Part shown: positions 1,689-61,153 of the stretch, piece after piece
Numbering within the stretch: position 1 is the first letter of the stretch
Layout of the letters: each line of letters begins with the position of its first letter
NCBI GenBank assembly: GCA_963674785.1
Contig: OY771555.1
Location: 1,224,511 to 1,288,510, forward strand
Reading direction: 5' to 3'
Source: Caldisericia bacterium
GTDB taxonomy: Bacteria > Caldisericota > Caldisericia > JAAYUI01
DNA: 64,000 bases
Made by a program: the position numbers and the translations under genes
Notes under the pieces: generated by a model
The model's input: the letters and a program-made list of their open reading frames with translations, nothing else
What the model was told of the DNA's origin: nothing
The model's database searches: none

Positions 1689-4281
1689 TCAAAGTGAAGT
1701 AAGAAGCTTTGCTCTTTCAGTGCTTCCGGGCTGTGGGGATATCGTCCTCTCCTGGCAGGATGTTTATGGTGTTTCAACATTCAAAGTTATGAGAGATGGC
1801 AAACAGGTTGCCATGCTCTATAATAATGAGACTGTTTGGGTTGACTTAGTACCTGAGGATGGAATAAATGAGTATCAGATTATAGGGCTCGACGATGAAA
1901 GAAATACAATATGTGAGTCATGGAAGATCGAAGCCAAAACGAGTTGTTTTGATACAGAGCTTTGCAAGACTGTCCTCAAATACAAACTTGACTCAACAGA
2001 TTATTGGGTGGATGGCACAAAAAAAGGACCAATGGATACCCCACCAGAGATAAACCTCGGTAGAATGTTTTTAGTTATCAGGTATGTAACTCAAGAATTG
2101 GGAGCAGAACTCTCTTGGGAAGGCACAGAAAAAAAGATAACAATCACAACAAAAACCGGAAAGATTATTGATCTGTGGGTTGGGAGACCTCTTGCGATGG
2201 TTGATGGGGCATCTGTTATGATTGATTCAGATAATATGGCTGTTGTTCCCTATATAAAAGAAGGAAGAACACTTTTACCGATGAGGTTTGTAGCTGAACA
2301 GCTTGGCGCAACGGGTGATGAAGATGTTATTTGGGATGGTGCTACAAAAACTGTTACTCTTAAGGTTAGAGACGAGGATTGCCCTGAACCAGATATAATG
2401 TACTTTACTGTTTCAGAGATTGATTCTGCTAAGTGGTTAGTTAAATGCAGAGATTCAATGAGGAATGATGTTTATGTAAATCTGAATCAGGAGTATGCAA
2501 TATTTAGCGCAACTTTAGAACCAGGACAAAAAATAAGAACTGCTGGAAAAGTTAGTATTGAGGACAGAAAACGGATTTCGATTGAAGCAAGATGGATAAA
2601 ACTTGTTGATGAATCAAGTGTCGATGAGGTGATCTGTAAGCCTGTTAGTTGTGATGAAAAGAAATTGATCTACATGGGAAAAGTTGCGTCTGATGAAGAA
2701 GATGGCGTGACCAAAGAAGAGATTGAGTTAAATTATACCAGATCATTTGAAGAGCTTGAAAGCTCTGAGAATCGTTATTGTGTCAGACTTCTTGTGGATG
2801 AAAAAAAGAATATTATCTGGTGGGAGCCAGCAGTATTTATTTCAAGCAATGAACAAATAATAACGCACTCAATTGATTTGTTGGATGTTGATAAAGAACA
2901 GAAACGTATCAAAGTAGAATATGATGATGGTGAACTTGAATACACCGATTGGATTTATTTCCCAATTGATTTTGAGTTTGACAAGTATGATGATGGCGGA
3001 TGTTATAAGGTTGATTATCAGATAAACGATGCTGGCAATAGAATATCAAAATCAAATCTTGAAGAGTATGACTGCACAGCTGCCTTTACAATCACAAGTC
3101 AATCAGATGGAATTGAAGTTTATCCTGGGGCTGAATTTGTTGGCAAGTTTGTTCTCAGAAATATTGACACTGAAGATTCAACATTCAAAACGGTTGCAGT
3201 TATTTCAATTGATGGGGAGGAAACTCAACTTGGTAGAGACACTCACGATATAAAATCCAGGTATAACAAAAAAATATCAGAAAGATTTACTGCTCCAAAT
3301 GCTGAAGGAAGTTTCAAGTTCGGTATAAGGGTTATTTCTGGTTCAACAAGTCGAACGTGCTGGGCAGAGGGCATATGTGTTCCGTTGGAGTTTGAGTTAA
3401 GCATTCCAAAAAAGGAGTATGAATTCCATCTCAATGAACCGGTCTATATTTCGGCATCTGTTTCTCATGAACATGATTCTCCGCTTCATATAGTACCTTT
3501 TGTTGAAATTCCATCAGAAGCTCTTCAGAGAGCAGAAAATAGTGTTCTTGGAGGATTAGACGTCAGATCGGGAGTGGAAAAACCAGTAAATCTTGTGCTT
3601 GACTGGATTTATACGAATGCTGTGGCTGGAGAATCTTACGAGGTTACAATTGGTGTAAGGTGCAAAGGTGTTTCTAAAACAGAGACTGTCGTTATAAAGG
3701 CTCTTGACTATATTCCACCAGAGGTTTTTGTTTCGAGTATTGAAAATGATGACTATAAAAAAACAACTATTTATGGAAGTATAAACTGGAATAATCTTAC
3801 ACCTGATAGGATTGAGGTTGATTGGGGTGATGGAATAATCACTGATGGTGATATTTCCTTCCCATTATCACACGTGTATGAGGATTGGGGAGTGTACAAA
3901 ATAAAAGTGAAAGTCATTTCTGTTGAGGGTGCATTTGCAGAAACTTCTGAAGAATATGTTTGTGAGGATCCTCCTCCACCTCCTCCTTTAATTTCAAGTG
4001 TTGATTTTGGAGATAAGTTGCTAGACGATTACACGATTGGTTTGGATATTGAAGTTAATTGGCGTGATTATGTAAAAGGAAAGATTCATATTGATTGGGG
4101 GGATGGTGAGAAAAGTGAATCATCAAGGACAGTTTATAAGCACAAATATCCAGAAGAGGACTTTTCTTCGTATATCTTAACAATTAAAGCGGTTTCAAGA
4201 GAAGGATATGAATCACCAACAAGAAAATTTGAGATATACGTCCTTTTCGGATGGTATATGCTTATAGGTGAAATTAGATAA
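1585..4281 (+). CDS. Large surface protein: signal peptide, FnIII-like, tandem CAO-N-like module near the N-terminus, two C-terminal PKD-like (WGDG) domains
   Basis: GTG start followed by a hydrophobic signal peptide 'MKKSVILVLVFCLVLMTFQAQ'. 'EGRTLLPMRFVAEQLGA' CAO-N signature. 'IEVDWGDGIITDGD...HVYEDWGVYKIKV' and 'IHIDWGDGEKSE' PKD signatures. Architecture parallels that of 12153-15638. Confidence 0.75.
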   Translation: MKKSVILVLVFCLVLMTFQAQFLSAGELGVTTPSDQSEVRSFALSVLPGCGDIVLSWQDVYGVSTFKVMRDGKQVAMLYNNETVWVDLVPEDGINEYQIIGLDDERNTICESWKIEAKTSCFDTELCKTVLKYKLDSTDYWVDGTKKGPMDTPPEINLGRMFLVIRYVTQELGAELSWEGTEKKITITTKTGKIIDLWVGRPLAMVDGASVMIDSDNMAVVPYIKEGRTLLPMRFVAEQLGATGDEDVIWDGATKTVTLKVRDEDCPEPDIMYFTVSEIDSAKWLVKCRDSMRNDVYVNLNQEYAIFSATLEPGQKIRTAGKVSIEDRKRISIEARWIKLVDESSVDEVICKPVSCDEKKLIYMGKVASDEEDGVTKEEIELNYTRSFEELESSENRYCVRLLVDEKKNIIWWEPAVFISSNEQIITHSIDLLDVDKEQKRIKVEYDDGELEYTDWIYFPIDFEFDKYDDGGCYKVDYQINDAGNRISKSNLEEYDCTAAFTITSQSDGIEVYPGAEFVGKFVLRNIDTEDSTFKTVAVISIDGEETQLGRDTHDIKSRYNKKISERFTAPNAEGSFKFGIRVISGSTSRTCWAEGICVPLEFELSIPKKEYEFHLNEPVYISASVSHEHDSPLHIVPFVEIPSEALQRAENSVLGGLDVRSGVEKPVNLVLDWIYTNAVAGESYEVTIGVRCKGVSKTETVVIKALDYIPPEVFVSSIENDDYKKTTIYGSINWNNLTPDRIEVDWGDGIITDGDISFPLSHVYEDWGVYKIKVKVISVEGAFAETSEEYVCEDPPPPPPLISSVDFGDKLLDDYTIGLDIEVNWRDYVKGKIHIDWGDGEKSESSRTVYKHKYPEEDFSSYILTIKAVSREGYESPTRKFEIYVLFGWYMLIGEIR

Positions 4282-6488: not shown

Positions 6489-9326
6489 CTAAGGGCTATA
6501 TTTTAGAATGATCTTTCTCTCTTCACCAATCCATTCGATTTCAGCCGAAACCACCTCAGAAAAAAACCTTATTGGAACCATTGTCCTTCCATCAATTATT
6601 GTCGGTGGAGGGTCAGTTGTATAAGTTTTAACCTCACCACCATCTTTTACTTTGACGGATTTTTCTCCAGTTTTAAGAGTTATCTCGAGAGTATCTTTTT
6701 TGAGAGTGATTTCTTTTGTGTCACCATTCCAGATCACTTCAAAACCAAATGTTTCAGTGATAAACCTTAGCGGGACCACAGTTCTTCCATTTATGATTGT
6801 GGGAGCTTTTTCTAATTCTACATGGTTTTCGTCAACAAGTGCAGCATCAGAATCGATTACAAGTTCGATTCTCATCTGATTTGAATCATAAACTGTTGCT
6901 CCATCAATTTTGACAATTACACGTGCATCTGCAAGTATATGAAGGAAATCCAGGGGCGCATATATTTTATCATCAATTCCTCTAGTAATAGAGTTTGATA
7001 AAGCTTTTGGGTGTCCATCGCAATTTATTATTCTTGAGCCAACCGTCATTGTATAGCTAAATTGAGTTGATTGAATCGAATAAACACTACCTGTTTGTTC
7101 GAGTTCTACATCATCGTAAAATAGTTTACACGCAGTAGGTACTTCAATAAATGGAGTTCCTACAACAAAGAGCTTGATACTTTCATCGATAAATAGTGTC
7201 CCCCCATTTATTTTGGTTTCCTTCGAATCAGATCTAAACTCAATCGTATATTCTCCGGGTTTTGGTTTGATGCTTGAATCACCAGAGATTTTAATGTCAA
7301 TATTCATATTATACATTCGATATACGAATTCAAAAGGTAGGTAGATATCTCCACGTATGATCTCTACCGGGTGAGGCATTATCTGAGGGCTTTCTAGTCC
7401 AGTTTTATACTTGATAAGTGCAACCTGATTTCCTATCCTAAAAACCGATTCCATTTCCAAATTTTTGTTGTAGAGTGTAATTTCTTTATCTTCTATTTTG
7501 ATCTCAACTACAAGACCAAGAATCTTAGGAATTGAATTTATTTCAATCATTAAGGTTCCCAAATTGGTTGTCCACGGAATCTCATTCATCTCAACAATCT
7601 CTCCGCCTACAACCGCAAGTTTTGAACCATACATCAATTCAACGTTGATTGTTTTTTTTGGGATAGTTACTGTCACTTCAACAGTTTTTTCTCCACCATT
7701 GGATTCAAAGATTATTTGCCCAACGTTTTCGCCGACATCAAGATCATCTGCTTGAATACCCACAGAGATTTCAGAGTTTCCATCAAACTCATCTTTATCA
7801 ATCTTAATCCAATCCTTTGTTGTCTTGATTGTGCCAAAAAGCTCGGCTTGTCCATCGTTTTCAAGTATTATAGTCTGTTTTTCATCCAGGTTTTCTTCTG
7901 AAAAAACAAGAGCTTCTGGTGTAACTTTTAAAACCGCTGCAATCATCGGAATAGACAGTTTGAGTCCGATTTTTGCATCACCACCGTCGCTATTGATGAT
8001 TATTGTGCAAGTATGTTCTGTCCCGGCATCAAGTCTCGAAAGATCAACAAATCCATGAGCAACAAATTCATTATCTGTAACTTCTGAAAATGTTGACGCA
8101 TCAAAGCTGATCCAGTCGCAATCGGTGTTGATGTTACCTGAAAGAGGTTCACCTCCTTTATTTGTTATTATGAACTCAAACTCTGGATATGAGTTTTTGC
8201 TAACCTCTCCAAGGTCAATTCCGAGAGTTGAAACAGAGAGTTCGGCTGGAGTCGTTGGTGGAGGTTCAGGTGTAGGGTCTTTTCCGATTTGAAAATACAT
8301 GAATGCAGGTGATTGGAGGAATGTAGAGGATGTGCCAAGGCTTTCGGTGCCAGAATGAATATAAACGCAGTATTTACTTCCATAAGGAAGAGGGGATGCT
8401 GGTTTAATGGTAAGAGTCTGGTCAACCATTTTCCCGGTTGTTGGATAAACAAGTCCATTTTGATCAATCAAATCCCATTTTGGAATGTTTGTGTATTTGT
8501 AATCAGAAAACGTGATTTTAAGTTCTTCTGGGGATTCTTCAAAAAAACTGCCAAGTGGGGTATCAAAATTTTCAACCTGGAACTGGTTTCTTCGCCAAAT
8601 ACCAGCCTGGTATATCTCATAGTTGTCAAAGGATTCAATTAGGAATATCCCGTAAACTTTTTTGTAGTCAACATTTGATGGGATATTCCAGTTCAATTCA
8701 AACTTCATCGCAGAGTGCTCATCAATTTGAAATGATTGTCCCGTTGGTTCTGGTTTTACATCTCTGCAAACCCAACTGTATCTTCTGCCTGAGGCTTTAG
8801 CGTCATCCTCGCAGATTATGAATGTGAAATTTGTTTCAGCAGGAATTGCATTCCAACCCAAAACATACGAAGTAAGTTTTAAATGGTCTTCTTGAATATC
8901 TCCTGTCAAATGTACCAGGAATGGACTTTTTTTGTTGATGTGGTAATCAATCATCTGGTCGTATTTTTCCTGAGTTTGTGTATCTCCACCTTGTACGAAT
9001 GTGTTCCCGTTAAAAATTGATGTTGGTGTTGCGACAACTCCGTAAGCTTTGATTCTTGCCGTGCTATTTACTTGTGACAATGAATCGTTGTAATGATGAG
9101 AGATTATCCCCAACCTGTCTTCTGGATACTCATAAGAAAGGTTTGAAAGTGCCTTTTCGGCAATTGGGCAGTAACCGCACCACGATGCTGTCTCGAGTTC
9201 TACAATGCATGTTCGCGGAAATCCATGTACAGTTTTACTAATTGCCCCAAATGTGGCAATATCTGGGAGAATCCCAAAAACAAGTGCAAAAACCAAAAGA
9301 AAAACAAAATAATTCCTAGCTTTCAT
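6489..9326 (-). CDS. Large surface protein with an N-terminal thioredoxin-like CxxC domain and a C-terminal tandem CAO-N-like module
   Basis: Signal peptide 'MKARNYFVFLLVFALVFG' (start likely the ATG at 9326; the ORF track starts at 9341). 'ASWCGYCP' followed by cis-Pro-type 'ATPTSIFNG'. C-terminal 'INGRTVVPLRFITETFGFEVIW' and 'IDGRTMVPIRFFSEVVSAEIEW'. Confidence 0.75.
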   Translation of the reverse strand: MKARNYFVFLLVFALVFGILPDIATFGAISKTVHGFPRTCIVELETASWCGYCPIAEKALSNLSYEYPEDRLGIISHHYNDSLSQVNSTARIKAYGVVATPTSIFNGNTFVQGGDTQTQEKYDQMIDYHINKKSPFLVHLTGDIQEDHLKLTSYVLGWNAIPAETNFTFIICEDDAKASGRRYSWVCRDVKPEPTGQSFQIDEHSAMKFELNWNIPSNVDYKKVYGIFLIESFDNYEIYQAGIWRRNQFQVENFDTPLGSFFEESPEELKITFSDYKYTNIPKWDLIDQNGLVYPTTGKMVDQTLTIKPASPLPYGSKYCVYIHSGTESLGTSSTFLQSPAFMYFQIGKDPTPEPPPTTPAELSVSTLGIDLGEVSKNSYPEFEFIITNKGGEPLSGNINTDCDWISFDASTFSEVTDNEFVAHGFVDLSRLDAGTEHTCTIIINSDGGDAKIGLKLSIPMIAAVLKVTPEALVFSEENLDEKQTIILENDGQAELFGTIKTTKDWIKIDKDEFDGNSEISVGIQADDLDVGENVGQIIFESNGGEKTVEVTVTIPKKTINVELMYGSKLAVVGGEIVEMNEIPWTTNLGTLMIEINSIPKILGLVVEIKIEDKEITLYNKNLEMESVFRIGNQVALIKYKTGLESPQIMPHPVEIIRGDIYLPFEFVYRMYNMNIDIKISGDSSIKPKPGEYTIEFRSDSKETKINGGTLFIDESIKLFVVGTPFIEVPTACKLFYDDVELEQTGSVYSIQSTQFSYTMTVGSRIINCDGHPKALSNSITRGIDDKIYAPLDFLHILADARVIVKIDGATVYDSNQMRIELVIDSDAALVDENHVELEKAPTIINGRTVVPLRFITETFGFEVIWNGDTKEITLKKDTLEITLKTGEKSVKVKDGGEVKTYTTDPPPTIIDGRTMVPIRFFSEVVSAEIEWIGEERKIILKYSP

Positions 9327-9443
9327 GCACTCAATATACAATAAATTCTCAATTTGTTCAATCGATAACAGAACAATTGCATGAAGAGGTTGTATGAAAG
9401 CTGTTGACCCAAAATTCTTGAAGGGATTGAAAACTCTTATAAA

Positions 9444-12083
9444 ATGCGAGATATGAAGAAATTTGTAATTGCTTTTGTTTCACTGTTGCTTGTTGTTTCG
9501 ATGGTTGTTTCGTGCGGGGAGGAGAAAACTCCTGAAGAAATGGTCGAATATCTTGAGCAATGGCAGGTGGGAGGGATAGTAATCCCAACGGACGATTACC
9601 AGCTTTTTACAAAACTATCCATTTTGTCACAGAAGACTGAGGAAGTTTTTAAAGCTGAAATCACAAAAAAGCCTGATGGAATAGAAGTTGCCAAAAAGGA
9701 AAACATCACTTTTAACAAACACTACTACGATTTCTATGTTAAAGCAAAAGAGGATCAGGTGGGTATCTATCCATTTGAAATTACTCTTTCGTCCGATAAT
9801 AATACTCATGTGATAAAAGGAGAGATCGAGATTCTTGCCCAAACCGAGAAGTTAGATAATCTATTTGGTGGGGCAAACAGGTCAAACGTGCTAACTGGGT
9901 TTGATTTTGACGGCAAGGATGTTGTGAAAAACCACTCAATTACTGATGATCTTATAACCGGACCAGTATCAGATGGAAATAGTATTTTTATAGGAACAAA
10001 AGATGGAGATTTGATAAAACTTGACTCTGATTTAAATGAGTTTTCTAATATAAATATAATCGATGCTTCAATCGATAAAATTCAAATCTGTGGTGATTAT
10101 ATTTTTATTGCTGATGTTAATGGTGTTGCTTATATTTTTGAGAAATCTGATACCGATAATTCATCAATGAAACCTATCTCAAAGCTTGATCTGGGAAGTA
10201 GACTATCTGTCACTCCTTCTGTCGTTTCTGAAAAAAATCTTATTGTTGGGACAAAGGGCGGAGCAATAATTTCATTGGCATATCCAAAGCTTAAAAAGAA
10301 TTGGGACTATAAGACTGGTGGAGAAGTGATTTCGCTTGCGGCATCATCAGGAGTTTCAAAAAAAGGTGACCGAAAAGGGACAATTGTTGCTGCATGTGAT
10401 GATAGGAATGTATATTTTGTTGGTCTTGATGGAAAACTTGTAACTATGGAGTCAAATGTAAATGATTTTGTGAAACATGTTTCAATAAAAGACGGAAAGG
10501 TCGTTTTAATTTCCGAGACCAATAAAATCTTTTTGAGAAATCTCAGTGACCTATTAATCTACGACATGTTTACTGAAAAAAACATAGATAGTGGGGCAGC
10601 TTTTAATGGTGATTATGTAGTGACTGTCAGTAGAAATAACTTGAATGTTCATGGTATCGATGATGGTTACTTACAGTTGGAGATGCAACTTGATGCAGAG
10701 GTGGTTTACGATCCAATTATTTTGGATGATAAAGTTCTCTTGTTTTTAGAAGATGGTACTTTTAGAGTGATGGATTTCATGGATGGCACTGAACACTGTA
10801 GACACAATTTCTCAGGAAAACCTTTAGGATGGCCAATAATAATCGACGAAAAACTCGTTTTAATGAATGAAGATGGTTACATTTCAACATGGGGAGAAAG
10901 AGAAAGGGTTGAATTGAGCGGAGCCGTTGATATTTCAAGTGTGAAGTATTTTGGTGGAAGAGGAGACCTCAGGCATTCGGGGTCTTTTGATTTTTCTGTT
11001 CCAGAGAATCCTTCTGTCATTCTTGAAATTCCGGGTAATTTTGCTCCACCGATTATTTCTAATAAATACATTTTTTTGTATGATATGGATCGTGAAGAGT
11101 TCAGTTTGAGGTCACAAGAAGATGGTGGAATAGTTTGGTATATCCCTGAAAAAGCAGCACACGGGTTGTTCACTGGTGCGGGACTAAATGCTGGTCCTCA
11201 CGAATCTCCGATGTTTATTACGCAAGATGGATTATTTATTGCAACCGAATCAGGTCTTTGGCTTGTAGATGAGAATACTGGAGAAATAATACAAAAAACT
11301 AACTACATCGGTATCCCTCAGATTGATGAGCAGGTGATTGTTTTGACATCTGAAGCTGGTGTTGTGTGCCTTGACAGGAATATGAATCATTTATGGACAA
11401 AGAGTTTAATTGGAGTCACATCTGGTCAACTGTGTATTGATGACGACGAGATATATGTTTTTGATAGGAACGGTGATGATTCAAAAATATACGTTTTTGA
11501 AAAGTTGAGTGGAAATACCCTTTTTGAAGAAACCGATTCGATATTACAATATGGGACAAAATTAGTTCTCTCAAGCAAGATGGCCGCAACAGGAACAATA
11601 GCAGGGATGTGGCTTATGGGTAGAGAACCATATATGGTTTTTGGAGCGGTAAATGGTACAAATAGGGCTTTGAACCCATTTGTTATTGATGGTGTTATTG
11701 GCTCAATGCAAGAGGGAATCGGATTGATAAAAAAGATTGATTCTGTAAGAGATTTTGCGGAGATAAATTACTTTGATATTAGAGGGATTAAAGATGAAGA
11801 TTCAGTCTTCTACAACTTTTTTACAGGCAACGATTTTTTGACGTTTGATAGATTGGTATCACTTACTGCAAAAGAGGAGCTAAAGGCAAATACTGATGAA
11901 TCTATAAAACCTCCACCTGAGGTGTATGTAACAATTAGAAAAAAAATAAACGGAGAGATTCTTTCAGAAATTTTTGTTAATAGCACAGGAGTTGCGGATT
12001 ATGCGATGACAGCAACTGATAATTTAATTGCTGTCTGTCAGCAGGGACCATCACCAAAACTCCTTCTGATTGGCGAGAAGTAG
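9444..12083 (+). CDS. Lipoprotein with PQQ/BamB-like beta-propeller repeats
   Basis: Lipobox 'LLVVSMVVSC' after an N-terminal basic region. Recurrent ~40-aa repeats with G-x-[IV]-x-x-[LI]-D/ '...DG..' periodicity. 879 aa. Confidence 0.65.
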   Translation: MRDMKKFVIAFVSLLLVVSMVVSCGEEKTPEEMVEYLEQWQVGGIVIPTDDYQLFTKLSILSQKTEEVFKAEITKKPDGIEVAKKENITFNKHYYDFYVKAKEDQVGIYPFEITLSSDNNTHVIKGEIEILAQTEKLDNLFGGANRSNVLTGFDFDGKDVVKNHSITDDLITGPVSDGNSIFIGTKDGDLIKLDSDLNEFSNINIIDASIDKIQICGDYIFIADVNGVAYIFEKSDTDNSSMKPISKLDLGSRLSVTPSVVSEKNLIVGTKGGAIISLAYPKLKKNWDYKTGGEVISLAASSGVSKKGDRKGTIVAACDDRNVYFVGLDGKLVTMESNVNDFVKHVSIKDGKVVLISETNKIFLRNLSDLLIYDMFTEKNIDSGAAFNGDYVVTVSRNNLNVHGIDDGYLQLEMQLDAEVVYDPIILDDKVLLFLEDGTFRVMDFMDGTEHCRHNFSGKPLGWPIIIDEKLVLMNEDGYISTWGERERVELSGAVDISSVKYFGGRGDLRHSGSFDFSVPENPSVILEIPGNFAPPIISNKYIFLYDMDREEFSLRSQEDGGIVWYIPEKAAHGLFTGAGLNAGPHESPMFITQDGLFIATESGLWLVDENTGEIIQKTNYIGIPQIDEQVIVLTSEAGVVCLDRNMNHLWTKSLIGVTSGQLCIDDDEIYVFDRNGDDSKIYVFEKLSGNTLFEETDSILQYGTKLVLSSKMAATGTIAGMWLMGREPYMVFGAVNGTNRALNPFVIDGVIGSMQEGIGLIKKIDSVRDFAEINYFDIRGIKDEDSVFYNFFTGNDFLTFDRLVSLTAKEELKANTDESIKPPPEVYVTIRKKINGEILSEIFVNSTGVADYAMTATDNLIAVCQQGPSPKLLLIGEK

Positions 12084-12152: not shown

Positions 12153-15100
12153 TTATGGGCAACAGTCTCCCCAACCCTTATAAACCCAGCTGATGATGTA
12201 TATCCCTGATGATTCTTTTGTGTATGTCACCTGGATACAGCTTCCAGGAGGAAGTGTTTTGAATGAGTACAATCCAGATTCATCGCGAAGTCCTGGTTGT
12301 ACCATAAGGCTCATACCCTTCATCTCATATTCATCACATGCTCTGTAATCAAGTGTCAGAATTGCGCCTTCACCGTCAATATTTGCATCATTTGTAAACC
12401 CATTAAATTCAATATTTGCCCAGTCATAATTATCAACACAACACTCGGTATATTTCATTGATTGCCACGCAACAACTCGATTTCTGTTTGTGAAGAATCT
12501 TACGCAATGCTTGTATTTTGCAGTGTATTCTTCAAATGTGAACTGCCCATGAATATCTTTCATTTTGGGGTCAATAAAGAATTGAGTATTATAATCATCG
12601 CATAGCTTGATTGTTACAAAAACATCTCCGTTTTTGTCTTTTTCGCTAACATTTTCTATCAGTCCGTCATATATTACTGAGCAACAGTCTTTGTCCTGGT
12701 CAAGTGCTGTCCATGAGATAATTTCTGTTCCTTTAACTTTCAGAATGACACATTTTCCTTCCCCATACTTTTGGAAGGTGTATTTTCTTGTTGTGTCCAT
12801 AAGTGTTTTTTTTGCATTGTAACCAAGTCTTACATTTTCGTTAAGGTCCGGGCACTCACTAACCCAAACTGTTAGACTATCTCCATCATCATCAATTCCT
12901 CCAATTTTTCCAACAACGATTTTAGGTGGAGTGATTTTTGTGCAACAATCACCATCTGTAGAAACAAGTGTCCATGAGTCAACACTCAATACATTGCTTC
13001 CACCGCTAATACTAACACAGAAGGTTCCGCATACACCTTTTTTTATATCCTTGATGTGCATCTTTCCAGTTGTATCCATTAAGTCTGGATCAGCGGCCAA
13101 CATTACACCCATCCCAGATGCTGGATTCAAACATTCTTTTATAAAAATCATATCTGAGTAACCTTCGCCACCAGGATTTCTGTTTGTTACTGTCCCAAAA
13201 ATCTTTTTGCCTTCACAGACCTTGCTTTCTGGTGTTGGGTCAGGCTGCTCTTGGTTACCGCAGCAATCTTTTACAAGAGGAAGTGCAATCCATGAAACAA
13301 TCCTTTTGTTTACAACACAAATCTTCGCACACCCTTTATAGTCAAAGATTTTGTAATTTCCAGATTTATCAATTCTGATATCATCTGATCCCGTATACTC
13401 ATCAAAAACTGAAAACTCTCCACCACAAATCTTGATTGAAACCTTCCAAGGAAGGTCGCTTGTTCCTGTACGTTCTGCAGAGAATATTTCAACTGGATAC
13501 CAAGTGCAATCTTCTGGTGGTGGCTGGTCGCCTTTGCAACAATTTCCGCCATTTCTGATCATGGTTGGATAGATTTCCTTGTAGGGAAGTGCATCTTCAT
13601 AGATGGGGTTTTCTTTCGCTTCACCGCAGACGATCCAGCATTGCCCCTCTCTTATCTCAGCACACTGATCAGCTGAAAGGTAAACCCTCCATGCAGTATT
13701 ATTCTTGTCGTACCCGTCAAAATTAGGTTCATCATCGTCACAATTTACGACTTCAACTGAAACGCAGAAACAATTCGAATCATTACCACAGCAGTCTTCC
13801 AAAAATGCCTCTGTCACTCTCATTGATTTTCCAACAGGTGTTCCAGTTGTTTCGTCTTGAACAACAACAATCCCACAAACCTTCCAGCATTCGCCAATCT
13901 GCATGTCAGATGCTAGATTTCTGTCAACTACAAGACCCCAAGTTGTATCAGCTGTATCACCGGTCATTATGAATAGGTTATCATTGAGTGTAACTTTTGT
14001 TTTTATGGTCACACAAACACATTCTGCTTCTGGTTCTCCGCAGCAGTCTTCTTTTGTAGCCTCTTCGACCTTCATGCCAAAATTTATACCAGGGGTTGGT
14101 GTTCCGATTTCTCCAGTGTCTTCCTGCTCAACGATTTCACCGCAGACTTTCCAACACTCTCCATCATTCATTGAGTATGCAATGTCTCTTGGGATAAGCA
14201 GACCCAAAACTGTGCCATCTTCCTTTGTTCCGGTTGCGACAAAGAAGTCGTCATTAATTCTGGTTTTTCCATCGATGATTACACAAACACACTCAACCAC
14301 AGGTGGGTTATTATCGCAGCAGGTTCCTTCGCTAATCTGTGTGACTTCAAATCCTGGGAATCCGTGTTTTCCTTCAACGAGGTTTCCCTCAACATTGATG
14401 CAACTTCCTTCCATAAACTCAGCTTGAAGTGTTGGTGCTTTGAATAGAACCCATTTGACTCCCCATTCATCAGTTACGTATGCTTCACCTCTTCCAACCT
14501 CTTCAACATGAACACAAAGTCCGCACGAACCACCACCATCATTATTGTCGTCTGGTTCACATGGGCATTCTACGCCTCGAATGCTTGTAACCCTGAAAAC
14601 ACTTACAGTTTGTACATTTGTGCCTGGGAGTGGGGTTGTGATTGGGTCTTCTGTTTCTGAGCTTTGTGGATATCCGCAGATTTCATAACATTTGTTCACT
14701 TCAAGTTTGTAAGCAAGTGATGTCGAATTCCCCTCAAACATCAGATTCCAAGTTTTTCCATTTCCATCAACAGCTGTTGCTGTTGGGATTTCAGAAGTTG
14801 TGTTCAGAGATGCAATTGTCATGCATGTGCATTCGCGGCATTCTGGGTCATCAAAATAAAGAACAACGGTGCTTGTGTCTGAAAACCACTTGATGTCGTT
14901 TGGACCAGTAGCACCAAGATTTTCTGCAACAAATCTCATTGGAAGAAGCGTTCTTCCGTTTACAACATACCCAACAACAGATGGGTTATTGGGGTCAATC
15001 TGAACAGGCTGACCGTTTACAGCAGCAGTTGGTTTTCCAATCCAGATTTCAATGACATTGTGGTCGGTTGTTGTGATGATGATTTTTTTCTCGGCTGCGA

Positions 15101-37186: not shown

Positions 37187-37246
37187 ACAAAATCAAATCA
37201 TTTCTCGTAGTAGATATTAAAGAAATATCGAAGGAGAAAATGTTTG

Positions 37247-55369: not shown

Positions 55370-55462
55370 AAAACTACCCCCTCTCACATAAAACCATTAT
55401 CTTCAGAACAAGACCCCTAAGCAATAGATAGAAGGGGATATAAAAGTAAAATCACACAAAAA

Positions 55463-55519: not shown

Positions 55520-58500
55520 CTACTTTTCTGACGGATAAACAATCTCGATTGCTTGTTCGTCGGCAATCCAGTTGACATCTGCTTTGAGTGCTTCGCAGGC
55601 AAACCTGAGTGGGAGCATTGTTCTTCCACCAACGATTGTTGGATAAAGAACTGTTGTCCCGTCAGCACCAAGAATCTTTACCTCGCTACCACTGATCTTT
55701 GCGGTTGAGTTGTCAATCCAGAGCTGAAGGACAGTGCTTCCAAGAGTTGCATCAACTCTTCTTTCGTCCCCATCCCAACCAACTGTTGCTCCAAGTGCTT
55801 CAAAGATTGCACGAACTGGCATATATGTGTTTCCTGCAAGTGCTGCTGGAAGTGGTGGTGACTGTGTTGTTGGCATTGGGTCAAGGTCGTCAACCTGTTT
55901 GTCGTTGATAACAAATTTTGCTGTATTTACCCAAAGCTTGAGTCTTGTTCTTGTGACGGCACCCTGAGTGTATGTGATTTTGTAGTTGCTTGTTCTGCAA
56001 TTATTGTAGCTGTCGCAGGTCTTGACTTCGATTTCGTTCAAGCCGCTATTAAGGGCAATAGTTTTTGTGAAGAACCATGTTTCATCAACATTTTCTGCAA
56101 ACGGGTCTTCTTGAATTTTTACTGTTTCACCATTGATTGTGAGTTTTGCATTCTCTTCAGTGAAGCCCATAAATTCGATTGCACTTTCACCTGTTATCAT
56201 GGAATTATCCAATGAAAGAAGGTTTTCGCTTGGTTTTGTAACAGTCAAAAATGGTGGTTCATTATCAAGATAAACAACTAGAGTAATTGCGTCACTTTCG
56301 CCTGTGAAGTTTCTTGCGATAATAACGATGTTGTTGAATCCAGCTTTAAGGTCATATGGGTATTTGAATGAGCCATCGTTGTTGATTTTGATAACATTTC
56401 CATCGATGAAGAGAGTAACTTGTGAAAGACCTTCATCTGATTTTATTTTTCCTGAGAGCTCGATGTTTGATTCATTTGTTTTGATGTCTGAATAATTGTA
56501 GTCTTGCTCTTCTCTTCTTCTCTGTGCTTCTTCAATTGTTGGCCAAGGAGATGTGTGTTTGATTGGTGCTGAGAGTTCAACTACAGGTGGTTCTGCATTC
56601 TGTCTGATTGCAAGAGTGGTATCGTGTGCAATTGCAATGATATTATTTCCGCTTGCATCCATGAGACTTACATTCTCGATACCGATTCTGATTCCATCCT
56701 TTTGAATCTTGTCACCTTTTGCTTTAAGGGTAAATGTCACAACGATGTTTTCATCGCGGTCTGCATAAACACCAGACTGCTCTCTGCTAATGCTTACTGA
56801 GATTCTTCCTGGAGTGTGATCGTAATCCCATGATGGCTGCTCTCCGCCTCTTGTGAGGAATCCTCCAAGTGAGATATGTGTTACATCGAGGTACTGGTCA
56901 TCATAAACAAAATCAAGCATTGCACCCATAACCTCGAGACCGCCCTTAAGATTAACCTTTACTTCAGTCTGTTTACATATGTCGTTGATTGCACAAGATG
57001 TAATGATGTGTCTTTCGGGGATAAGTTCGACATCAAGCTTTTTTGCTTTTGCCTTTATTTCAAGAACCTTATCAAATGGTTCGCCACGTGAATTTGAGCC
57101 TGTTCCTTTGATGGATACTTTGTATCCATCTTCAATATAAGCCATGTCCTGATTTGCTTTGAGTGAAACAATGCTTTCAAATGGTGGAACTCCAAATGCT
57201 GGGTTGAATGTTGCTGTGAAAAACTCTGATGACTCTTCACCAAGTACGAGGTTTACTGGGTTATCGTATTCGTTGATTGAATCAACCGAAAGCTTGAAGT
57301 CAGTTACCTGCCCAGGGGCAACATCAATGATCGCTTTGCCTATTGGCTCCATTTCAAATGATGGTGGCTTGGCTGGTTCGATAAGCATACTAAGGTCAAA
57401 CTTCTCAACAGTTCCTGAAGCAGTTTCTGAGACCTTAAGTAGATAGTTACTTTCCGTTCCTTCTGGGCTTTCAACAGGGACATCCATTGACACACCAATA
57501 ACGACTGATTCCATTGGGTGGAGGCTTAATTCTGCACCACTTGCCGTTGGCACGGAGTCGATCATTATCATTGTTTCCCATGCTTCGCCTGAGACGTGAT
57601 TCATGTCTACAGTGAAATCTAATGGGATGTTGCCAAGATTTGTAAGCACGTATGACTGTTCAGGTCTTGAGCCAGCCTGGACGCTGAAATCTGATTCTGA
57701 CTGTGTGAGGCTGTATTTTCTAAAGAGTGGCTGCTTGAGATCGCACATTGTTGACTGAAGGATTTCTTTTGTGGTGTTATCCTGAATCCAAGCAACGATG
57801 AAACAGTTTTTGTAGAGAGTTGTCCAATCGTATTCGGTACCAGTTGTTGGAAGTTTGAATTTCATGTCGTAGTATGTTGTTCCGACAGGAAGTGAGATTG
57901 GATCACCAAGGTGACCCTTGTCTTCAGCTGGTTCTTCTCCGTAGTGATGGAGCATCTTCATGACTGTGAGTGAGTGTTCTTCCTCACCATTATCGGCTGA
58001 GAATTCAACATTGTTTTCAACGAGAGTGAAGTACACATTGAGATCTCTATAGCTGCTTACATCCTGATATGTTTTGATTTCAAGGTTTGCAAAACCAACT
58101 GATTTTCCAATTGTTCCCTGGAGGAACAGTTTGATTGGAGAGCGCTGCTCTTTGTAATCAACAACTCTCTGGTAGAATCTCCAGTAACTATAGGAGCTAC
58201 CAGACATTTTTCTGTCGGGGAGAATATCAGGAGCTTTGTCCTGTCTTTCGTGAGGTCCGTCACCTTCTGAGAAGTTCTGAAGCCCATTATACATCGTGGT
58301 TGGAAGACCTTCTTTTGTGTACCATCTGTATCTGTAATGGTGTTCTTCCTGCGTCATACCTGAGTTATCTTTTGGGGCGTCAGCATAGTAAGCAATAGGG
58401 ATAATTTCTGCATACCCGTATTCTTCCGCCATTCTGTATTGTGATTCTCTGTGATATGGACAATACTGACACCAAACGGCTGTGAAAGTCTCAGTTAGAA

Positions 58501-61153
58501 GTGTTCTTGGAACATATCCAGTGCTTTCCGTTGGTGGATTGACAAGGAGGGCAACTGTGAATGCGACCTCTTTGTTCTGGGCAGTCGATGACTTCATTAC
58601 AATTTCGATTTCGTAGATACCCGGAATGAGTTCGCCTCTGGATTTGAAAGTTACGGTTGTTTTTGTTGCGCCATCTTTAACTCTGATTGTGCTTGGATCA
58701 AAGCTTATATTTAGTGCGGTAAGAGCAAATCCTGAGCAGTCGACATTTTTAACATCAAGGTGAGGATGTTTGTTTTCCGATCCATTTGGAACAACACAGA
58801 GTTTTGCAGGTTTTTTGTATGTCAAGCTAACATTTCCATCAAAACCATTCTGAGGAAGAACCTCAAGTTCAAGTGTTCCGGGTGTGTCGCTATCAAGTTC
58901 TACAAAAAGAACTGTGTCTGGGCTTAAAGTAAATCCATAGCTATCTGAAACAAGAACTTTTACGGGAACCTTTATGGTGCCTTTGTTTGTTTTGATATTG
59001 AGAACTGCTTCAATTGTTTCACCTGCAGCCATACCTGTTGTGTCAACTTTGACATTGACCATGATGGTGTCACCGACGAAATTCTTTGGTTCAACTGAAA
59101 CAAAATTAAGATCCTGCTCGATATCGATACTTCCTGAAAGCATTCCACCAGACCAGTTTCTGATCTCTATTCTTTTCTGAAGTGTCTGACCAACACCCAT
59201 TACACCGAAGTCAAGAATATTTGGTGCAACAGTAAAATATACATTGTAATCTGGTTGTGAAACAAATGTTGCAGTATCGATTCTTGGAAGATTAAAGACG
59301 GTGCTGTATGGGATAACCTGAAGTCTGTGGTTTCTTGTATCAGCAACAACTATTCCTTGGTCATTGCATGCGATTGCCTCAGGATACATGAAAAAGCCTT
59401 TTGCCTCTTTATATTCATCGCCTTCCTGCATTGCGTTTTCCCAGCCAGCTTTTGAGAAGAATATTGCTCTTCCTGGACCACCAGTTTTACCATAATCCCA
59501 GGATCTTGTTGAGTTGTTGTCAAAAACAACAAGTCTGTCGTTGAATGTATCTGCGGCAAAAATCATACCTGATTCATCATATGAACAATCGGATGGGAAG
59601 AAGAGCATTCCTTCACCTCTACCTTTGTGCCCATACTGTCTGATTGGGTTGCCGTCCATGTCAAACTCTTGAAGTCTGCAGTTTGCTGCGTCGGCTACAA
59701 GGAGTTTTCTGCCATCTGTTGTAATGCTTTTTGGAAGATTAAACTGTCCAGGTGATGAGCCAAATCCGCCAAACTGACCAAGGAATTCGCCACCAATTGA
59801 GAAAGTCTGAACAAGGTTGTTTCCGGTGTCTGCAACAAATATCTTTCCAAGTGATGAGGAAACTGCAATATCTGATGGTGAGTTAAGTTTGCCATTTCCG
59901 TAACCAAATGAGCCTATTGTGTTCTGGTATTTGCCGTTTCCTGAGAAAACTTTAACACAATGGTTTCCGCTGTCTGCGACATATATGTTTCCATCTTTGT
60001 CAAAATCAAGCCCTTCAGGTGTGAGAAGTTCGTTTGTGCCTGTACCTTTTTTCCCGAATTCAGATGAAAATCCATTTTCGTTGAAAAGAAGGATTTTTGA
60101 ACGAGCTGAGTCTGCAACGGCATATGTGCCGTTTGAGATTGAAAGACCAACAGGGAGTCCAAATGAACCAGAACATGCATTATCATCCTCAGGAAGAGAA
60201 GAAACATATTTGCCATCTGGGTTGAAAATGTCTACTCTGTTGTTTTTGTAAGAGGAGACGTAGATTTTTCCGTCTAGAACTGTGATTCCCATTGGACCAT
60301 TGATCTGTCCTCTGCCATTTCCAGGGGATCCGAACGAATTTATTGTTGTACCATCAAGAGAATAAACGAGGATTGAGTTTTCTGAATAGTCTGTGACATA
60401 AACTCTGTTGTCAAAAATAGTTATTCCGTATGGAGCTTTTGCTTCGCCAAAAGCATTAATGAAGCTTCCGTCGATTCCAAATATAAATATTTTTCCAGCT
60501 GATGGGTCAGTGACAAAGATTTTTCCTTCAGTGACAGCAATTCCTGTTGGTTTTTCGAGTGTATAGTTTTCGCCGTCTGTTGTTGGAATTGTGAGTGCAA
60601 GATTGTCTTTAAGGTCAACTGCGATGATGTTTTTTGCACCAGTATTTGCGATATATAAGAGACCGTTGAATGCAAAAATATCACTTGGATGAACCATGTA
60701 TGATTCACCTGTTTGTGGATTTATAGCGTGAAGCTCTTTTTCTATTTCGTCGTCTGATCTGTTTCCGCGAACGAGGATTTTTCCATAAAATCTATCCAAC
60801 CAGTAAATCTTGTTTTGGAAACATGTGATTCCACCTGGATCTGAGTTAAGGAATTCATGGCTACCTAGAAGTCCGTATGCGTACTGAGGTGTCCCATCTT
60901 TCAAGATGGCTTGAACTCTGGTGTTGATACTGTCAACAATGTAGACTCTGTTACCTTCATTAGCGAGCCATGTGGGGCCAACAAAAGAGCCAATAGCACA
61001 TTCATTTCCGACGAGTTTTACCCCGAAATCAGATAAACGATTTTTATGCTCTTCGTTTGCTAAAACACTTCCAATGACTGGTAGATAAGATAGTACCAAT
61101 AACAATCCTAGTGCCAATGAGATGGCTTTCTTTTGTAAACTTGCGAAACTCAT
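55520..61153 (-). CDS. Giant (1877 aa) surface protein: signal peptide, NHL-repeat beta-propeller, thioredoxin-like CxxC domain, Ig-like/cadherin-like domains, C-terminal tandem CAO-N-like module
   Basis: Signal peptide 'ISLALGLLLVLSYLPVIGSVLA'. NHL-type repeats 'YVADSGNHCVKVF', 'FVADTGNNLVQTF', 'VADTRNHRLQVI'. 'TAVWCQYCPYH' followed by 'EGLPTTMYNG'. C-terminal 'NTYMPVRAIFEALGATVGW' and 'GGRTMLPLRFACEALKADVNW'. Confidence 0.8.
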   Translation of the reverse strand: MSFASLQKKAISLALGLLLVLSYLPVIGSVLANEEHKNRLSDFGVKLVGNECAIGSFVGPTWLANEGNRVYIVDSINTRVQAILKDGTPQYAYGLLGSHEFLNSDPGGITCFQNKIYWLDRFYGKILVRGNRSDDEIEKELHAINPQTGESYMVHPSDIFAFNGLLYIANTGAKNIIAVDLKDNLALTIPTTDGENYTLEKPTGIAVTEGKIFVTDPSAGKIFIFGIDGSFINAFGEAKAPYGITIFDNRVYVTDYSENSILVYSLDGTTINSFGSPGNGRGQINGPMGITVLDGKIYVSSYKNNRVDIFNPDGKYVSSLPEDDNACSGSFGLPVGLSISNGTYAVADSARSKILLFNENGFSSEFGKKGTGTNELLTPEGLDFDKDGNIYVADSGNHCVKVFSGNGKYQNTIGSFGYGNGKLNSPSDIAVSSSLGKIFVADTGNNLVQTFSIGGEFLGQFGGFGSSPGQFNLPKSITTDGRKLLVADAANCRLQEFDMDGNPIRQYGHKGRGEGMLFFPSDCSYDESGMIFAADTFNDRLVVFDNNSTRSWDYGKTGGPGRAIFFSKAGWENAMQEGDEYKEAKGFFMYPEAIACNDQGIVVADTRNHRLQVIPYSTVFNLPRIDTATFVSQPDYNVYFTVAPNILDFGVMGVGQTLQKRIEIRNWSGGMLSGSIDIEQDLNFVSVEPKNFVGDTIMVNVKVDTTGMAAGETIEAVLNIKTNKGTIKVPVKVLVSDSYGFTLSPDTVLFVELDSDTPGTLELEVLPQNGFDGNVSLTYKKPAKLCVVPNGSENKHPHLDVKNVDCSGFALTALNISFDPSTIRVKDGATKTTVTFKSRGELIPGIYEIEIVMKSSTAQNKEVAFTVALLVNPPTESTGYVPRTLLTETFTAVWCQYCPYHRESQYRMAEEYGYAEIIPIAYYADAPKDNSGMTQEEHHYRYRWYTKEGLPTTMYNGLQNFSEGDGPHERQDKAPDILPDRKMSGSSYSYWRFYQRVVDYKEQRSPIKLFLQGTIGKSVGFANLEIKTYQDVSSYRDLNVYFTLVENNVEFSADNGEEEHSLTVMKMLHHYGEEPAEDKGHLGDPISLPVGTTYYDMKFKLPTTGTEYDWTTLYKNCFIVAWIQDNTTKEILQSTMCDLKQPLFRKYSLTQSESDFSVQAGSRPEQSYVLTNLGNIPLDFTVDMNHVSGEAWETMIMIDSVPTASGAELSLHPMESVVIGVSMDVPVESPEGTESNYLLKVSETASGTVEKFDLSMLIEPAKPPSFEMEPIGKAIIDVAPGQVTDFKLSVDSINEYDNPVNLVLGEESSEFFTATFNPAFGVPPFESIVSLKANQDMAYIEDGYKVSIKGTGSNSRGEPFDKVLEIKAKAKKLDVELIPERHIITSCAINDICKQTEVKVNLKGGLEVMGAMLDFVYDDQYLDVTHISLGGFLTRGGEQPSWDYDHTPGRISVSISREQSGVYADRDENIVVTFTLKAKGDKIQKDGIRIGIENVSLMDASGNNIIAIAHDTTLAIRQNAEPPVVELSAPIKHTSPWPTIEEAQRRREEQDYNYSDIKTNESNIELSGKIKSDEGLSQVTLFIDGNVIKINNDGSFKYPYDLKAGFNNIVIIARNFTGESDAITLVVYLDNEPPFLTVTKPSENLLSLDNSMITGESAIEFMGFTEENAKLTINGETVKIQEDPFAENVDETWFFTKTIALNSGLNEIEVKTCDSYNNCRTSNYKITYTQGAVTRTRLKLWVNTAKFVINDKQVDDLDPMPTTQSPPLPAALAGNTYMPVRAIFEALGATVGWDGDERRVDATLGSTVLQLWIDNSTAKISGSEVKILGADGTTVLYPTIVGGRTMLPLRFACEALKADVNWIADEQAIEIVYPSEK

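What the first reader, a model, noticed from the sequence alone, without database searches (positions are those of the whole stretch)
8940..9250. Thioredoxin-like CxxC domains embedded in two giant surface proteins (second one near 58300-58560 in the 1877-aa protein)
6489-9326 carries 'ASWCGYCPIAEKAL...(~55 aa)...VVATPTSIFNG'. 55520-61153 carries 'TAVWCQYCPYHRES...(~55 aa)...EGLPTTMYNG'. W-C-x-Y-C-P plus a downstream cis-Pro-type T-P-T/P-T-T motif at the right spacing is the thioredoxin-fold active-site arrangement. Both copies sit inside secreted, anchor-bearing proteins. Extracellular thiol-disulfide oxidoreductase modules built into adhesin or S-layer-like giants are unusual. They might isomerise the many disulfides of neighbouring Cys-rich surface proteins (e.g. 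12153-15638) or act on host or partner substrates.
Basis: partly seen in the sequence, partly recalled or inferred. Interest (0 to 1): 0.6.

Follow-up and report, generated by a model that had tools for sequence, protein, structure and literature searches.

The report
Omp28/HBP35-type thioredoxin modules in surface proteins
Two large secreted proteins of an uncultured Caldisericota bacterium each carry a real thioredoxin-fold CxxC module, but it belongs to the already known, widespread Omp28/HBP35 family of surface redox domains, so it is a new member of a known kind.

Summary
W-C-G-Y-C-P (nt 9165-9182) and W-C-Q-Y-C-P (nt 58457-58474) lie in two minus-strand genes of 945/950 aa and 1877 aa. 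A conserved Pro follows the first Cys by 51 and 56 residues.

Each motif heads a 212-260 aa two-lobed module: a minimal thioredoxin fold plus a beta-sandwich.

- **Profiles:** profile-profile comparison with proteins carrying Pfam PF11551 (Omp28) gives 98-99% probability.
- **Spread:** an exhaustive search found 1183 clusters. The CxxC is kept in 158-159 of 160 domains and the Pro in 155 of 160. Many hits are large multidomain proteins with stalk, NHL, T9SS or dockerin domains.
- **Existing annotation:** orthologs in Caldisericia MAGs are already labelled "thiol-disulfide isomerase/thioredoxin" or "Omp28-related".

HBP35 is a surface protein with CxxC-dependent insulin-reducing activity, so the likely function is surface thiol-disulfide exchange. 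Direction and substrate are unknown. The link to the neighbouring Cys-rich protein is weak. Interest is low to moderate.

The parts
6489..9326 (-). Gene P1: secreted 945-aa protein from the ATG (950 aa from the TTG at 9341; residue numbers here use the TTG start). Order: signal peptide, Omp28/HBP35-type thioredoxin module, Ig/BACON-like domains, four Cu_amine_oxidN1 'stalk' stretches.
   Evidence: ORF list. Pfam: Cu_amine_oxidN1 E 5e-50 in 4 stretches, BACON_2, DUF5717_N. Orthologs at 31-54% identity over the whole protein in nine Caldisericota MAGs.
9243..9326 (-). P1 predicted signal peptide (MKARNYFVFLLVFALVFGILPDIATFGA).
   Evidence: Read directly from the sequence: a basic n-region, a hydrophobic core and an A-x-A-like end. 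No predictor was run.
8928..9227 (-). P1 thioredoxin lobe (aa 39-138), topology beta-alpha-beta-alpha-beta-beta-alpha.
9168..9179 (-). P1 active-site C55-G-Y-C58, inside W-C-G-Y-C-P. HBP35 has the same hexapeptide.
   Evidence: The two Cys are kept in 158 and 159 of 160 family domains.
9021..9029 (-). P1 T105-P106-T107 loop, the candidate cis-Pro loop.
   Evidence: Pro is kept in 155 of 160 family domains. It aligns with the I-P76-T of E. coli TrxA. It lies just before strand E69-72 of the model. The cis geometry itself could not be checked.
8592..8927 (-). P1 beta-sandwich lobe of the module (aa 139-250).
6507..6836 (-). P1 last Cu_amine_oxidN1 'stalk' domain (aa 836-945), the best of four stretches. 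Presumed surface-attachment or stalk part.
   Evidence: Pfam PF07833. An anchoring role is inferred, not shown.
55520..61153 (-). Gene P2: secreted 1877-aa protein. Order: signal peptide, NHL beta-propeller region, Ig-like domains, Omp28/HBP35-type thioredoxin module, Ig-like, cohesin-like and Glucodextran_B-like domains, C-terminal stalk domain.
   Evidence: A 1890-aa relative, P0001/P0175, is annotated 'stalk domain-containing protein [Caldisericia bacterium]'.
61058..61153 (-). P2 predicted signal peptide (MSFASLQKKAISLALGLLLVLSYLPVIGSVLA).
   Evidence: Read directly from the sequence. No predictor was run.
59498..60325 (-). Core of the P2 NHL-repeat beta-propeller region (aa 277-552). The propeller region probably extends further on both sides.
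   Evidence: Pfam NHL E 2e-38 and DUF5128 E 9e-23. NCBIfam ScyF-like NHL E 2e-64, below its cutoff.
58145..58519 (-). P2 thioredoxin lobe (aa 879-1003). It includes a low-confidence insertion at module residues 87-104.
   Evidence: AF2 model pLDDT 81.8, pTM 0.84, with E7-14 H20-34 E39-46 H60-67 E74-77 E81-84 H107-123. Foldseek top hits are 5y1a (E 1e-13) and 2axo (E 9e-10).
58460..58471 (-). P2 active-site C895-Q-Y-C898, inside W-C-Q-Y-C-P.
58298..58306 (-). P2 L950-P951-T952 loop, the candidate cis-Pro loop.
   Evidence: Alignment column P68/P73. It lies just before strand E74-77.
57740..58144 (-). P2 beta-sandwich lobe of the module (aa 1004-1138).
55541..55849 (-). P2 C-terminal Cu_amine_oxidN1 'stalk' domain (aa 1769-1871).
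   Evidence: Pfam PF07833 E 2.7e-23.

Best explanation
Each segment is the N-terminal lobe of a 212-260 aa two-lobed module of the Omp28/HBP35/DUF1223 superfamily. The first lobe is a minimal thioredoxin fold. It carries W-C-x-Y-C-P at the start of helix 1 and a conserved x-Pro-Thr loop before strand 3. The second lobe is a beta-sandwich packed against it.

The modules sit in two secreted multidomain proteins of a Caldisericota bacterium. Both end in Cu_amine_oxidN1 'stalk' domains, so the modules are most likely displayed outside the cytoplasmic membrane.

Shown here: the fold, family membership at superfamily level, near-invariance of the CxxC, the Pro and four further residues, and export signals read from the sequence.

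Inferred: the module is an active thiol-disulfide oxidoreductase. The exposed first Cys (C55 or C895) would attack a substrate disulfide or thiol to form a mixed disulfide, and the second Cys (C58 or C898) would resolve it. This follows HBP35, whose identical WCGYCP site reduces insulin with DTT, and is reported to complement an E. coli dsbA mutant.

The direction (oxidase, reductase or isomerase), the electron partner and the substrates are not known. The other domains of each protein (NHL propeller, Ig/BACON-like) would supply binding or positioning.
For: Structure:
- AF2 models have pLDDT 94.4 and 81.8 with thioredoxin topology.
- Foldseek puts 5y1a first for both modules.

Sequence and profiles:
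- The family profile hits 5y1a, 2axo, 2r2c and thioredoxins in the PDB.
- hhalign against proteins carrying PF11551 gives 98.3% (E 1.5e-14) and 99.2% (E 1.7e-19).
- All 25 relatives in alignment A2 hit NCBIfam lipoprot_Omp28, 24 of 25 hit Omp28_seleno and 17 of 25 hit Pfam Omp28.

Conservation over 160 domains from 150 clusters: E10 159, C17 158, C20 159, R58 153, Y62 154, P68 155, G74 157.

Other support:
- The existence of an NCBIfam model named 'Omp28-related selenoprotein' suggests Sec-containing relatives. By general knowledge of Sec/Cys pairs, this marks a redox-active site. Where the Sec lies in those relatives was not examined here.
- HBP35 reduces insulin, and the C48S/C51S mutant does not. 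HBP35 is reported to complement dsbA and is on the cell surface (PMC2907840).
- P1's CGYC dipeptide is the same as in HBP35. From my own knowledge it is also the dipeptide of E. coli DsbC.
Against: - No activity was measured.
- The window proteins score far below the curated cutoffs of the specific models. NCBIfam gives 27 bits against a cutoff of 200 and 25 bits against 150. Pfam Omp28 does not hit them at all.
- P2 lacks the family's near-invariant Arg155 (it has Met) and P1 lacks Gln198 (it has Glu).
- No redox partner such as CcdA/DsbD or DsbB/VKOR is in the window or in the related loci.
- The physiological role of the HBP35 thioredoxin domain is itself unknown (PMC2907840).
- The organism is presumably an anaerobe in a reducing habitat, where a need for extracellular disulfide chemistry is not obvious.
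Confidence: 0.7

Rival explanations
1. The module is mainly a ligand-binding or adhesion module (heme, metal or partner cells), and the CxxC is accessory. HBP35 was named for binding hemin and also acts as a coaggregation and adhesion factor.
For: HBP35 binds hemin through residues 135-344, independently of the CxxC. It is described as a coaggregation factor (PMC11681262). The beta-sandwich lobe and extra near-invariant residues (R58, Y62, R155, Q198/Q207) suggest a defined binding site beyond a generic thioredoxin. Both window proteins are rich in Ig/BACON/NHL binding-type domains.
Against: The CxxC and the Pro are the most conserved positions across 1183 very divergent clusters, which binding alone would not require. 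HBP35's CxxC is catalytically competent. No heme-binding motif was identified in the window modules. Binding and redox roles do not exclude each other.
Confidence: 0.15
2. The thioredoxin fold is a structural relic, a pseudo-enzyme spacer in a surface stalk. The CxxC would form a permanent structural disulfide or do nothing.
For: The window modules are divergent outliers below the curated family cutoffs. P2 has lost Arg155 and carries a disordered 18-residue insertion. No redox partner gene lies nearby.
Against: In all six members of the P1 subfamily alignment, the CxxC, Glu10, Arg58, Tyr62, Pro68 and Gly74 are invariant, although identity to the window sequence falls to 38%. The P2 subfamily alignment also keeps Glu10, the CxxC, Arg, Tyr, Pro and Gly invariant. 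Pseudo-enzymes usually lose exactly these residues.
Confidence: 0.1
3. The CxxC belongs to a zinc ribbon or another non-thioredoxin metal site.
For: Only that CxxC motifs are common in zinc-binding folds.
Against: There is no second CxxC pair in either module. Confident models have thioredoxin topology, and the best structural matches are HBP35, DUF1223 and thioredoxins.
Confidence: 0.01

Closest known systems
HBP35 (35 kDa hemin-binding protein, PG0616/PGN0659) of Porphyromonas gingivalis, PDB 5y1a
   Different: HBP35 is a 344-aa single-module protein of a diderm Bacteroidota species, exported by the T9SS and anchored through its CTD and A-LPS. The window modules are only 15-18% identical to it. 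They sit in 945- and 1877-aa multidomain proteins of Caldisericota, a phylum reported to lack LPS genes (PMC5007114). They have a signal peptide and Cu_amine_oxidN1 stalk domains instead of a T9SS CTD.
Omp28 family (Pfam PF11551; NCBIfam NF033782 'Omp28 family outer membrane lipoprotein' and NF045500 'Omp28-related selenoprotein'); PDB 2r2c
   Different: The window proteins do not reach the curated cutoffs. They are not lipoproteins of an outer membrane. In P2 the module is embedded in the middle of a giant protein.
DUF1223 (Pfam PF06764), PDB 2axo (Atu2684 of Agrobacterium)
   Different: DUF1223 proteins are small stand-alone proteins of unknown function. Sequence similarity to the window modules is weak (E 0.0067 for P1).
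Classical thioredoxins and Dsb proteins (E. coli TrxA, MJ0307 thioredoxin 1fo5, DsbA/DsbC)
   Same: Thioredoxin fold, W-C-x-x-C, cis-Pro-type loop and the G after strand 4. P1's C-G-Y-C dipeptide equals that of E. coli DsbC (my own knowledge).
   Different: The fold is the minimal four-strand, three-helix version without the N-terminal beta-alpha of TrxA. The model shows no helical insertion like that of DsbA. No DsbC-type dimerisation domain was identified. There is an extra beta-sandwich lobe. Location is extracytoplasmic, in a giant protein.
NHLRC2 and SOQ1 (thioredoxin-like domain plus NHL beta-propeller)
   Same: P2 combines an NHL propeller with a thioredoxin-fold CxxC module, as do 13 of the 63 best family hits. 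In NHLRC2 and SOQ1 these two domain types act together (PMC6107167; bioRxiv 10.1101/2021.03.16.435614).

Membership tests
Thioredoxin-fold superfamily | Central beta-sheet with beta-alpha-beta ... alpha ... beta-beta-alpha topology. | tested here: met
Thioredoxin-fold superfamily | C-x-x-C at the N-terminus of the first helix of the fold. | tested here: met
   C17 and C20 of the module lie at the loop-to-helix junction (helix 20-33 in P1, 20-34 in P2). They align with C32/C35 of E. coli TrxA.
Thioredoxin-fold superfamily | cis-Proline loop facing the active site. | tested here: inconclusive
   The Pro is conserved in 155 of 160 domains, lies just before strand 3 and aligns with TrxA Pro76.
Thioredoxin-fold superfamily | Thiol-disulfide exchange activity. 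| not testable with these tools
   Activity is shown only for the homolog HBP35 (PMC2907840).
Omp28/HBP35 family (PF11551, NF033782, NF045500) | Score above the curated cutoff of the family models. | tested here: not met
   Pfam Omp28 gives no hit at E <= 0.1 for either protein. NCBIfam Omp28_seleno scores 27.2 and 21.2 bits against a cutoff of 200. lipoprot_Omp28 scores 14.9 and 25.3 bits against a cutoff of 150.
Omp28/HBP35 family (PF11551, NF033782, NF045500) | Homology detectable by profile-profile and transitive search. | tested here: met
   hhalign 98.3% and 99.2% against proteins carrying PF11551. Hits to the window profile are themselves Omp28-positive: 36 of 63 and 25 of 25 for NF033782. 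The relative P0004 is annotated 'Omp28-related outer membrane protein'.
Omp28/HBP35 family (PF11551, NF033782, NF045500) | Two-lobed architecture: thioredoxin lobe plus beta-sandwich lobe. | tested here: met
Omp28/HBP35 family (PF11551, NF033782, NF045500) | Family signature residues E10, C17, C20, R58, Y62, P68, G74, R155, Q198, Q207. | tested here: met
   P1 has all except Q198 (Glu). P2 has all except R155 (Met).
Omp28/HBP35 family (PF11551, NF033782, NF045500) | Outer-membrane lipoprotein or T9SS-CTD-anchored small protein. | tested here: not met
   Neither protein has a lipobox or a Por_Secre_tail domain. Both are large and end in Cu_amine_oxidN1 domains. This describes the founding members rather than the domain.
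DsbA/DsbC periplasmic disulfide oxidoreductases | Helical insertion domain (DsbA) or N-terminal dimerisation domain (DsbC). | tested here: not met

The most novel reading that the evidence does not exclude
The Omp28-type module may not be a generic protein-disulfide oxidoreductase. It could be a surface enzyme with a specific small-molecule or redox-relay chemistry, for example handling polysulfide, thiosulfate, selenium or another anionic sulfur species, or forming reversible disulfide cross-links between cells or sheath proteins.

This chemistry would be served by the extra near-invariant Glu, Arg, Tyr, Arg and Gln residues that thioredoxins lack. In P2-type proteins the recurring fusion to an NHL propeller would supply the substrate-binding site. 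If so, Caldisericota would display a family of extracellular redox catalysts on stalk-domain proteins.
Probability: 0.1. Interest if true: 0.6.

Novelty: new member of a known kind. Interest (0 to 1): 0.3.

Why it matters
The result puts a correct name on two unannotated-looking stretches. They are Omp28/HBP35-type thioredoxin modules, and the family reaches well beyond Bacteroidota outer-membrane lipoproteins. It occurs in large, signal-peptide-exported multidomain proteins of Caldisericota and, by architecture, of other lineages.

The family is large, with 1183 clusters at 50% identity, and has a nearly invariant redox motif. Yet only one member, HBP35, has been tested biochemically, and even its physiological role is unknown.

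If the Caldisericota modules are active, they would be a tractable case for asking what extracellular thiol-disulfide chemistry does in strict anaerobes. As it stands, the finding is an annotation refinement, not a discovery.

Tried and rejected
- **Single-sequence word-indexed search.** The P1 module gave no hit at E <= 1e-3, so I went to the exhaustive profile search.
- **Exact look-up of both proteins.** Nothing was on record. The source genome is not in the collections; the nearest genomes are 66%, 62% and 55% identical over the module.
- **The search for related loci with the broad alignment A2.** I repeated it with the P1 subfamily alignment A5, so the genome scan covers mainly P1-like relatives.
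- **afdb50 fold library.** Not available.
- **Literature searches.** 'Omp28 + thioredoxin-like' and 'Caldisericota + copper amine oxidase' found nothing.
- **Conserved operon partner.** The Cys-rich / PQQ-propeller / P1 / NaPi order holds only in L001 and L002. The other Caldisericota loci have different neighbours. Where tested (L005), these are transaldolase, MGMT, MinC, Maf, a radical SAM protein and a pyridine nucleotide-disulphide oxidoreductase (Fer4_20 + Pyr_redox_2 domains). I rejected this as evidence of functional coupling.
- **Further divergent copies in the window.** A family-HMM search found none.
- **Zinc-ribbon reading.** Rejected on the fold evidence.
Full report
**Observation.**
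The two quoted sequences exist, and both genes are on the minus strand.
- P1 runs from 9326 (ATG) or 9341 (TTG) down to 6489, giving 945 or 950 aa. Residue numbers here use the TTG start.
- P1 carries W-C55-G-Y-C58-P at nt 9182-9165 and A-T-P106-T-S-I-F-N-G 51 residues later.
- P2 runs from 61153 to 55520 (1877 aa). It carries W-C895-Q-Y-C898-P at nt 58474-58457 and L-P951-T-T-M-Y-N-G 56 residues later.
- These are the only [FWY]CxxCP matches in long ORFs of the window.
- The two regions are homologous to each other. BLASTP gives E 1e-9 over 135 residues, and MAFFT aligns them over the full 212 and 260 residues.

**What the unit is.**

*Family scans of the window proteins.* Pfam gave only a sub-threshold Thioredoxin_3 hit for P1. 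NCBIfam gave weak hits, far below cutoff, to 'Omp28-related selenoprotein' and 'Omp28 family outer membrane lipoprotein' for both proteins.

*Solved structures by sequence.* The best match for P1 is the 35-kDa hemin-binding protein HBP35 of P. gingivalis (5y1a). It has the identical hexapeptide WCGYCP. The next match is the MJ0307 thioredoxin.

*Exhaustive profile search.* A profile of the two window modules was searched against 1.84 billion cluster representatives.
- It found 1183 proteins at E <= 1e-3 and 136 at E <= 1e-10.
- Of 161 matched domains, 158 keep a CxxC.
- In a 25-sequence alignment, 17 members hit Pfam Omp28 (PF11551), 9 hit DUF1223, all 25 hit NF033782 and 24 hit NF045500.

*Profile-profile comparison.* Against proteins that carry PF11551, the P1 subfamily gives 98.3% (E 1.5e-14). 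The P2 subfamily gives 99.2% (E 1.7e-19). Each spans about 198 columns.

**Structure.**
AlphaFold2 was run with small alignments of window sequences and permitted homologs.
- The P1 module has pLDDT 94.4 and pTM 0.91.
- The P2 module has pLDDT 81.8 and pTM 0.84. Its one disordered insertion covers module residues 87-104.

Both models start with beta-alpha-beta-alpha-beta-beta-alpha. The two cysteines sit at the entry to helix 1 and the conserved Pro sits immediately before strand 3. A beta-sandwich follows.

Structure searches agree:
- Foldseek ranks HBP35 5y1a first for both modules (E 3e-12 and 1e-13). Below it come the Omp28 domain 2r2c, DUF1223 2axo and many thioredoxins.
- BLASTP to E. 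coli TrxA aligns WCGYC with WCGPC and ATPT with GIPT, the cis-Pro76 loop.

The zinc-ribbon alternative is therefore excluded. I could not read the model coordinates, so the cis geometry of the Pro is inferred and not shown.

**Conservation.**
Counts are over 160 domains from 150 clusters at 50% identity, in P1-module numbering.

| Position | Domains keeping it |
|---|---|
| Glu10 | 159 |
| Cys17 | 158 |
| Cys20 | 159 |
| Arg58 | 153 |
| Tyr62 | 154 |
| Pro68 | 155 |
| Gly74 | 157 |
| Arg155 | 146 |
| Gln198 | 147 |

- P2 has Met at position 155 and P1 has Glu at position 198.
- Glu10 probably corresponds to the buried Asp26 of TrxA. This is an inference from the alignment.
- The extra Arg, Tyr, Arg and Gln residues have no thioredoxin counterpart. 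They hint at a family-specific site.

**Organism and context.**
- The window genome is not in the collections.
- The nearest P1 modules are in Caldisericales and Caldisericia MAGs, at 66% to 41% identity over the module. More distant relatives are in Bacteroidales and Cloacimonadota.
- Caldiserica is reported to lack LPS genes. It is also discussed among lineages thought to have lost the outer membrane (PMC5007114; bioRxiv 10.1101/2021.05.31.446380).
- Both proteins have signal-peptide-like N-termini and C-terminal Cu_amine_oxidN1 'stalk' domains. At least eight proteins in the window carry that domain. Surface display is therefore likely, but the anchoring role of the domain is inferred.
- P1 orthologs with the same architecture occur in all nine Caldisericota loci.
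- The order Cys-rich protein, PQQ-propeller, P1, Na/Pi transporter is conserved only in the two nearest relatives. The other Caldisericota loci have different neighbours, housekeeping genes where tested. No redox partner gene was seen.

**How common the arrangement is.**
- Of the 150 best hits, 84 are at least 600 aa and 25 are at least 1000 aa. The module is N-terminal in 83, internal in 36 and C-terminal in 31. Eleven proteins carry more than one copy.
- Among the top 63, 15 also have Cu_amine_oxidN1 and 13 have NHL repeats. Others have T9SS C-terminal domains, dockerin, FlgD_ig, fn3 or PKD.
- Public annotations of close relatives already read 'thiol-disulfide isomerase/thioredoxin' (JGI), 'Omp28-related outer membrane protein' and 'stalk domain-containing protein' (NCBI).

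**Mechanism.**
The best-supported reading is surface thiol-disulfide exchange through the CxxC, by analogy with HBP35.
- Recombinant HBP35 reduces insulin faster than E. coli thioredoxin.
- Its C48S/C51S mutant is inactive.
- The hbp35 gene is reported to complement an E. coli dsbA mutant.
- The protein is on the cell surface. Its hemin binding maps outside the CxxC, and the physiological role of the thioredoxin domain is unknown (PMC2907840).

The CGYC dipeptide of P1 is the same as in HBP35 and, from my own knowledge, in DsbC. The existence of an NCBIfam model named 'Omp28-related selenoprotein' suggests selenocysteine relatives, which would argue for catalysis at this site. I did not check where the Sec lies.

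Direction, partner and substrate remain open. The rivals are a ligand-binding or adhesion role (0.15), a structural relic (0.1) and a zinc ribbon (refuted).

**Comparison and novelty.**
This is a new member of a known kind: a divergent Caldisericota branch of the Omp28/HBP35/DUF1223 superfamily. It fails the curated model cutoffs but meets the structural, profile-profile and signature-residue tests.

The NHL-plus-thioredoxin combination in P2 recalls NHLRC2 and SOQ1 (PMC6107167; bioRxiv 10.1101/2021.03.16.435614). The thioredoxin subtype, the domain order and the spacing all differ, so the combination is probably independent.

Interest is low to moderate at 0.3. The finding is correct and tidy, but already covered by existing families and annotation pipelines. 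The open question of what this large, nearly unstudied family does outside the cell gives it some residual value.

Noticed in passing
window 12153-15638 (-): A secreted 1161-aa protein with 61 Cys (5.3%) and nine 'CC' doublets. It has one Cu_amine_oxidN1 domain near the N-terminus and no other Pfam hit. It seems built from repeated modules of roughly 90 aa ending in D/E-C-C-G. Orthologs with 59 and 26 Cys (both cut by the locus edge) are syntenic in L001 and L002.
   Followed up: partly
window 1585-4281, 6489-9341, 12153-15638, 25325-27262, 46780-48354, 48799-52776, 52853-55387, 55520-61153: Eight predicted secreted proteins in one 64-kb window carry Cu_amine_oxidN1 'stalk' domains, mostly at the C-terminus. 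This looks like the lineage's general surface-attachment or stalk module. Its binding target is unknown.
   Followed up: partly
window 9444-12083 (+), 46780-48354 (-), 48799-52776 (-): Several large PQQ_2/BamB-like beta-propeller proteins. One has a lipoprotein-like N-terminus (…VVSCGEE) and lies next to P1. A similar propeller-plus-stalk protein lies about 2 kb from the P1 ortholog in L004-L006, L008 and L009.
   Followed up: partly
top family hits P0006, P0008, P0011, P0012, P0016, P0019, P0028 and others: 13 of the 63 best family hits combine NHL repeats with the Omp28-type thioredoxin module. A group of roughly 900-aa hits (P0006, P0008, P0011, P0012 and others) has the module near residue 555. 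This looks like a shorter version of P2, though I did not check which individual hits carry the NHL repeats. It parallels eukaryotic NHLRC2 and SOQ1.
   Followed up: partly
L011 2567-3631, 5587-6942, 6972-9221 (Cloacimonadota MAG): Three ORFs within 7 kb, all on the same strand, each with similarity to the P1 thioredoxin module. This suggests local paralog expansion of the family.
   Followed up: no
window 37244-38569 (+): A secreted arylsulfotransferase (ASST)-family protein (Pfam E 3e-27). In the E. coli example I know of, ASST depends on a dedicated DsbL/DsbI pair (my own knowledge), so it could be a disulfide-containing client. This was not examined.
   Followed up: no
window 61341-61962 (-): Two small overlapping-frame ORFs (132 and 116 aa), each rich in CxxC pairs, next to P2. 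They look like cytoplasmic zinc- or iron-sulfur-binding proteins, and I saw nothing linking them to the thioredoxin modules.
   Followed up: no
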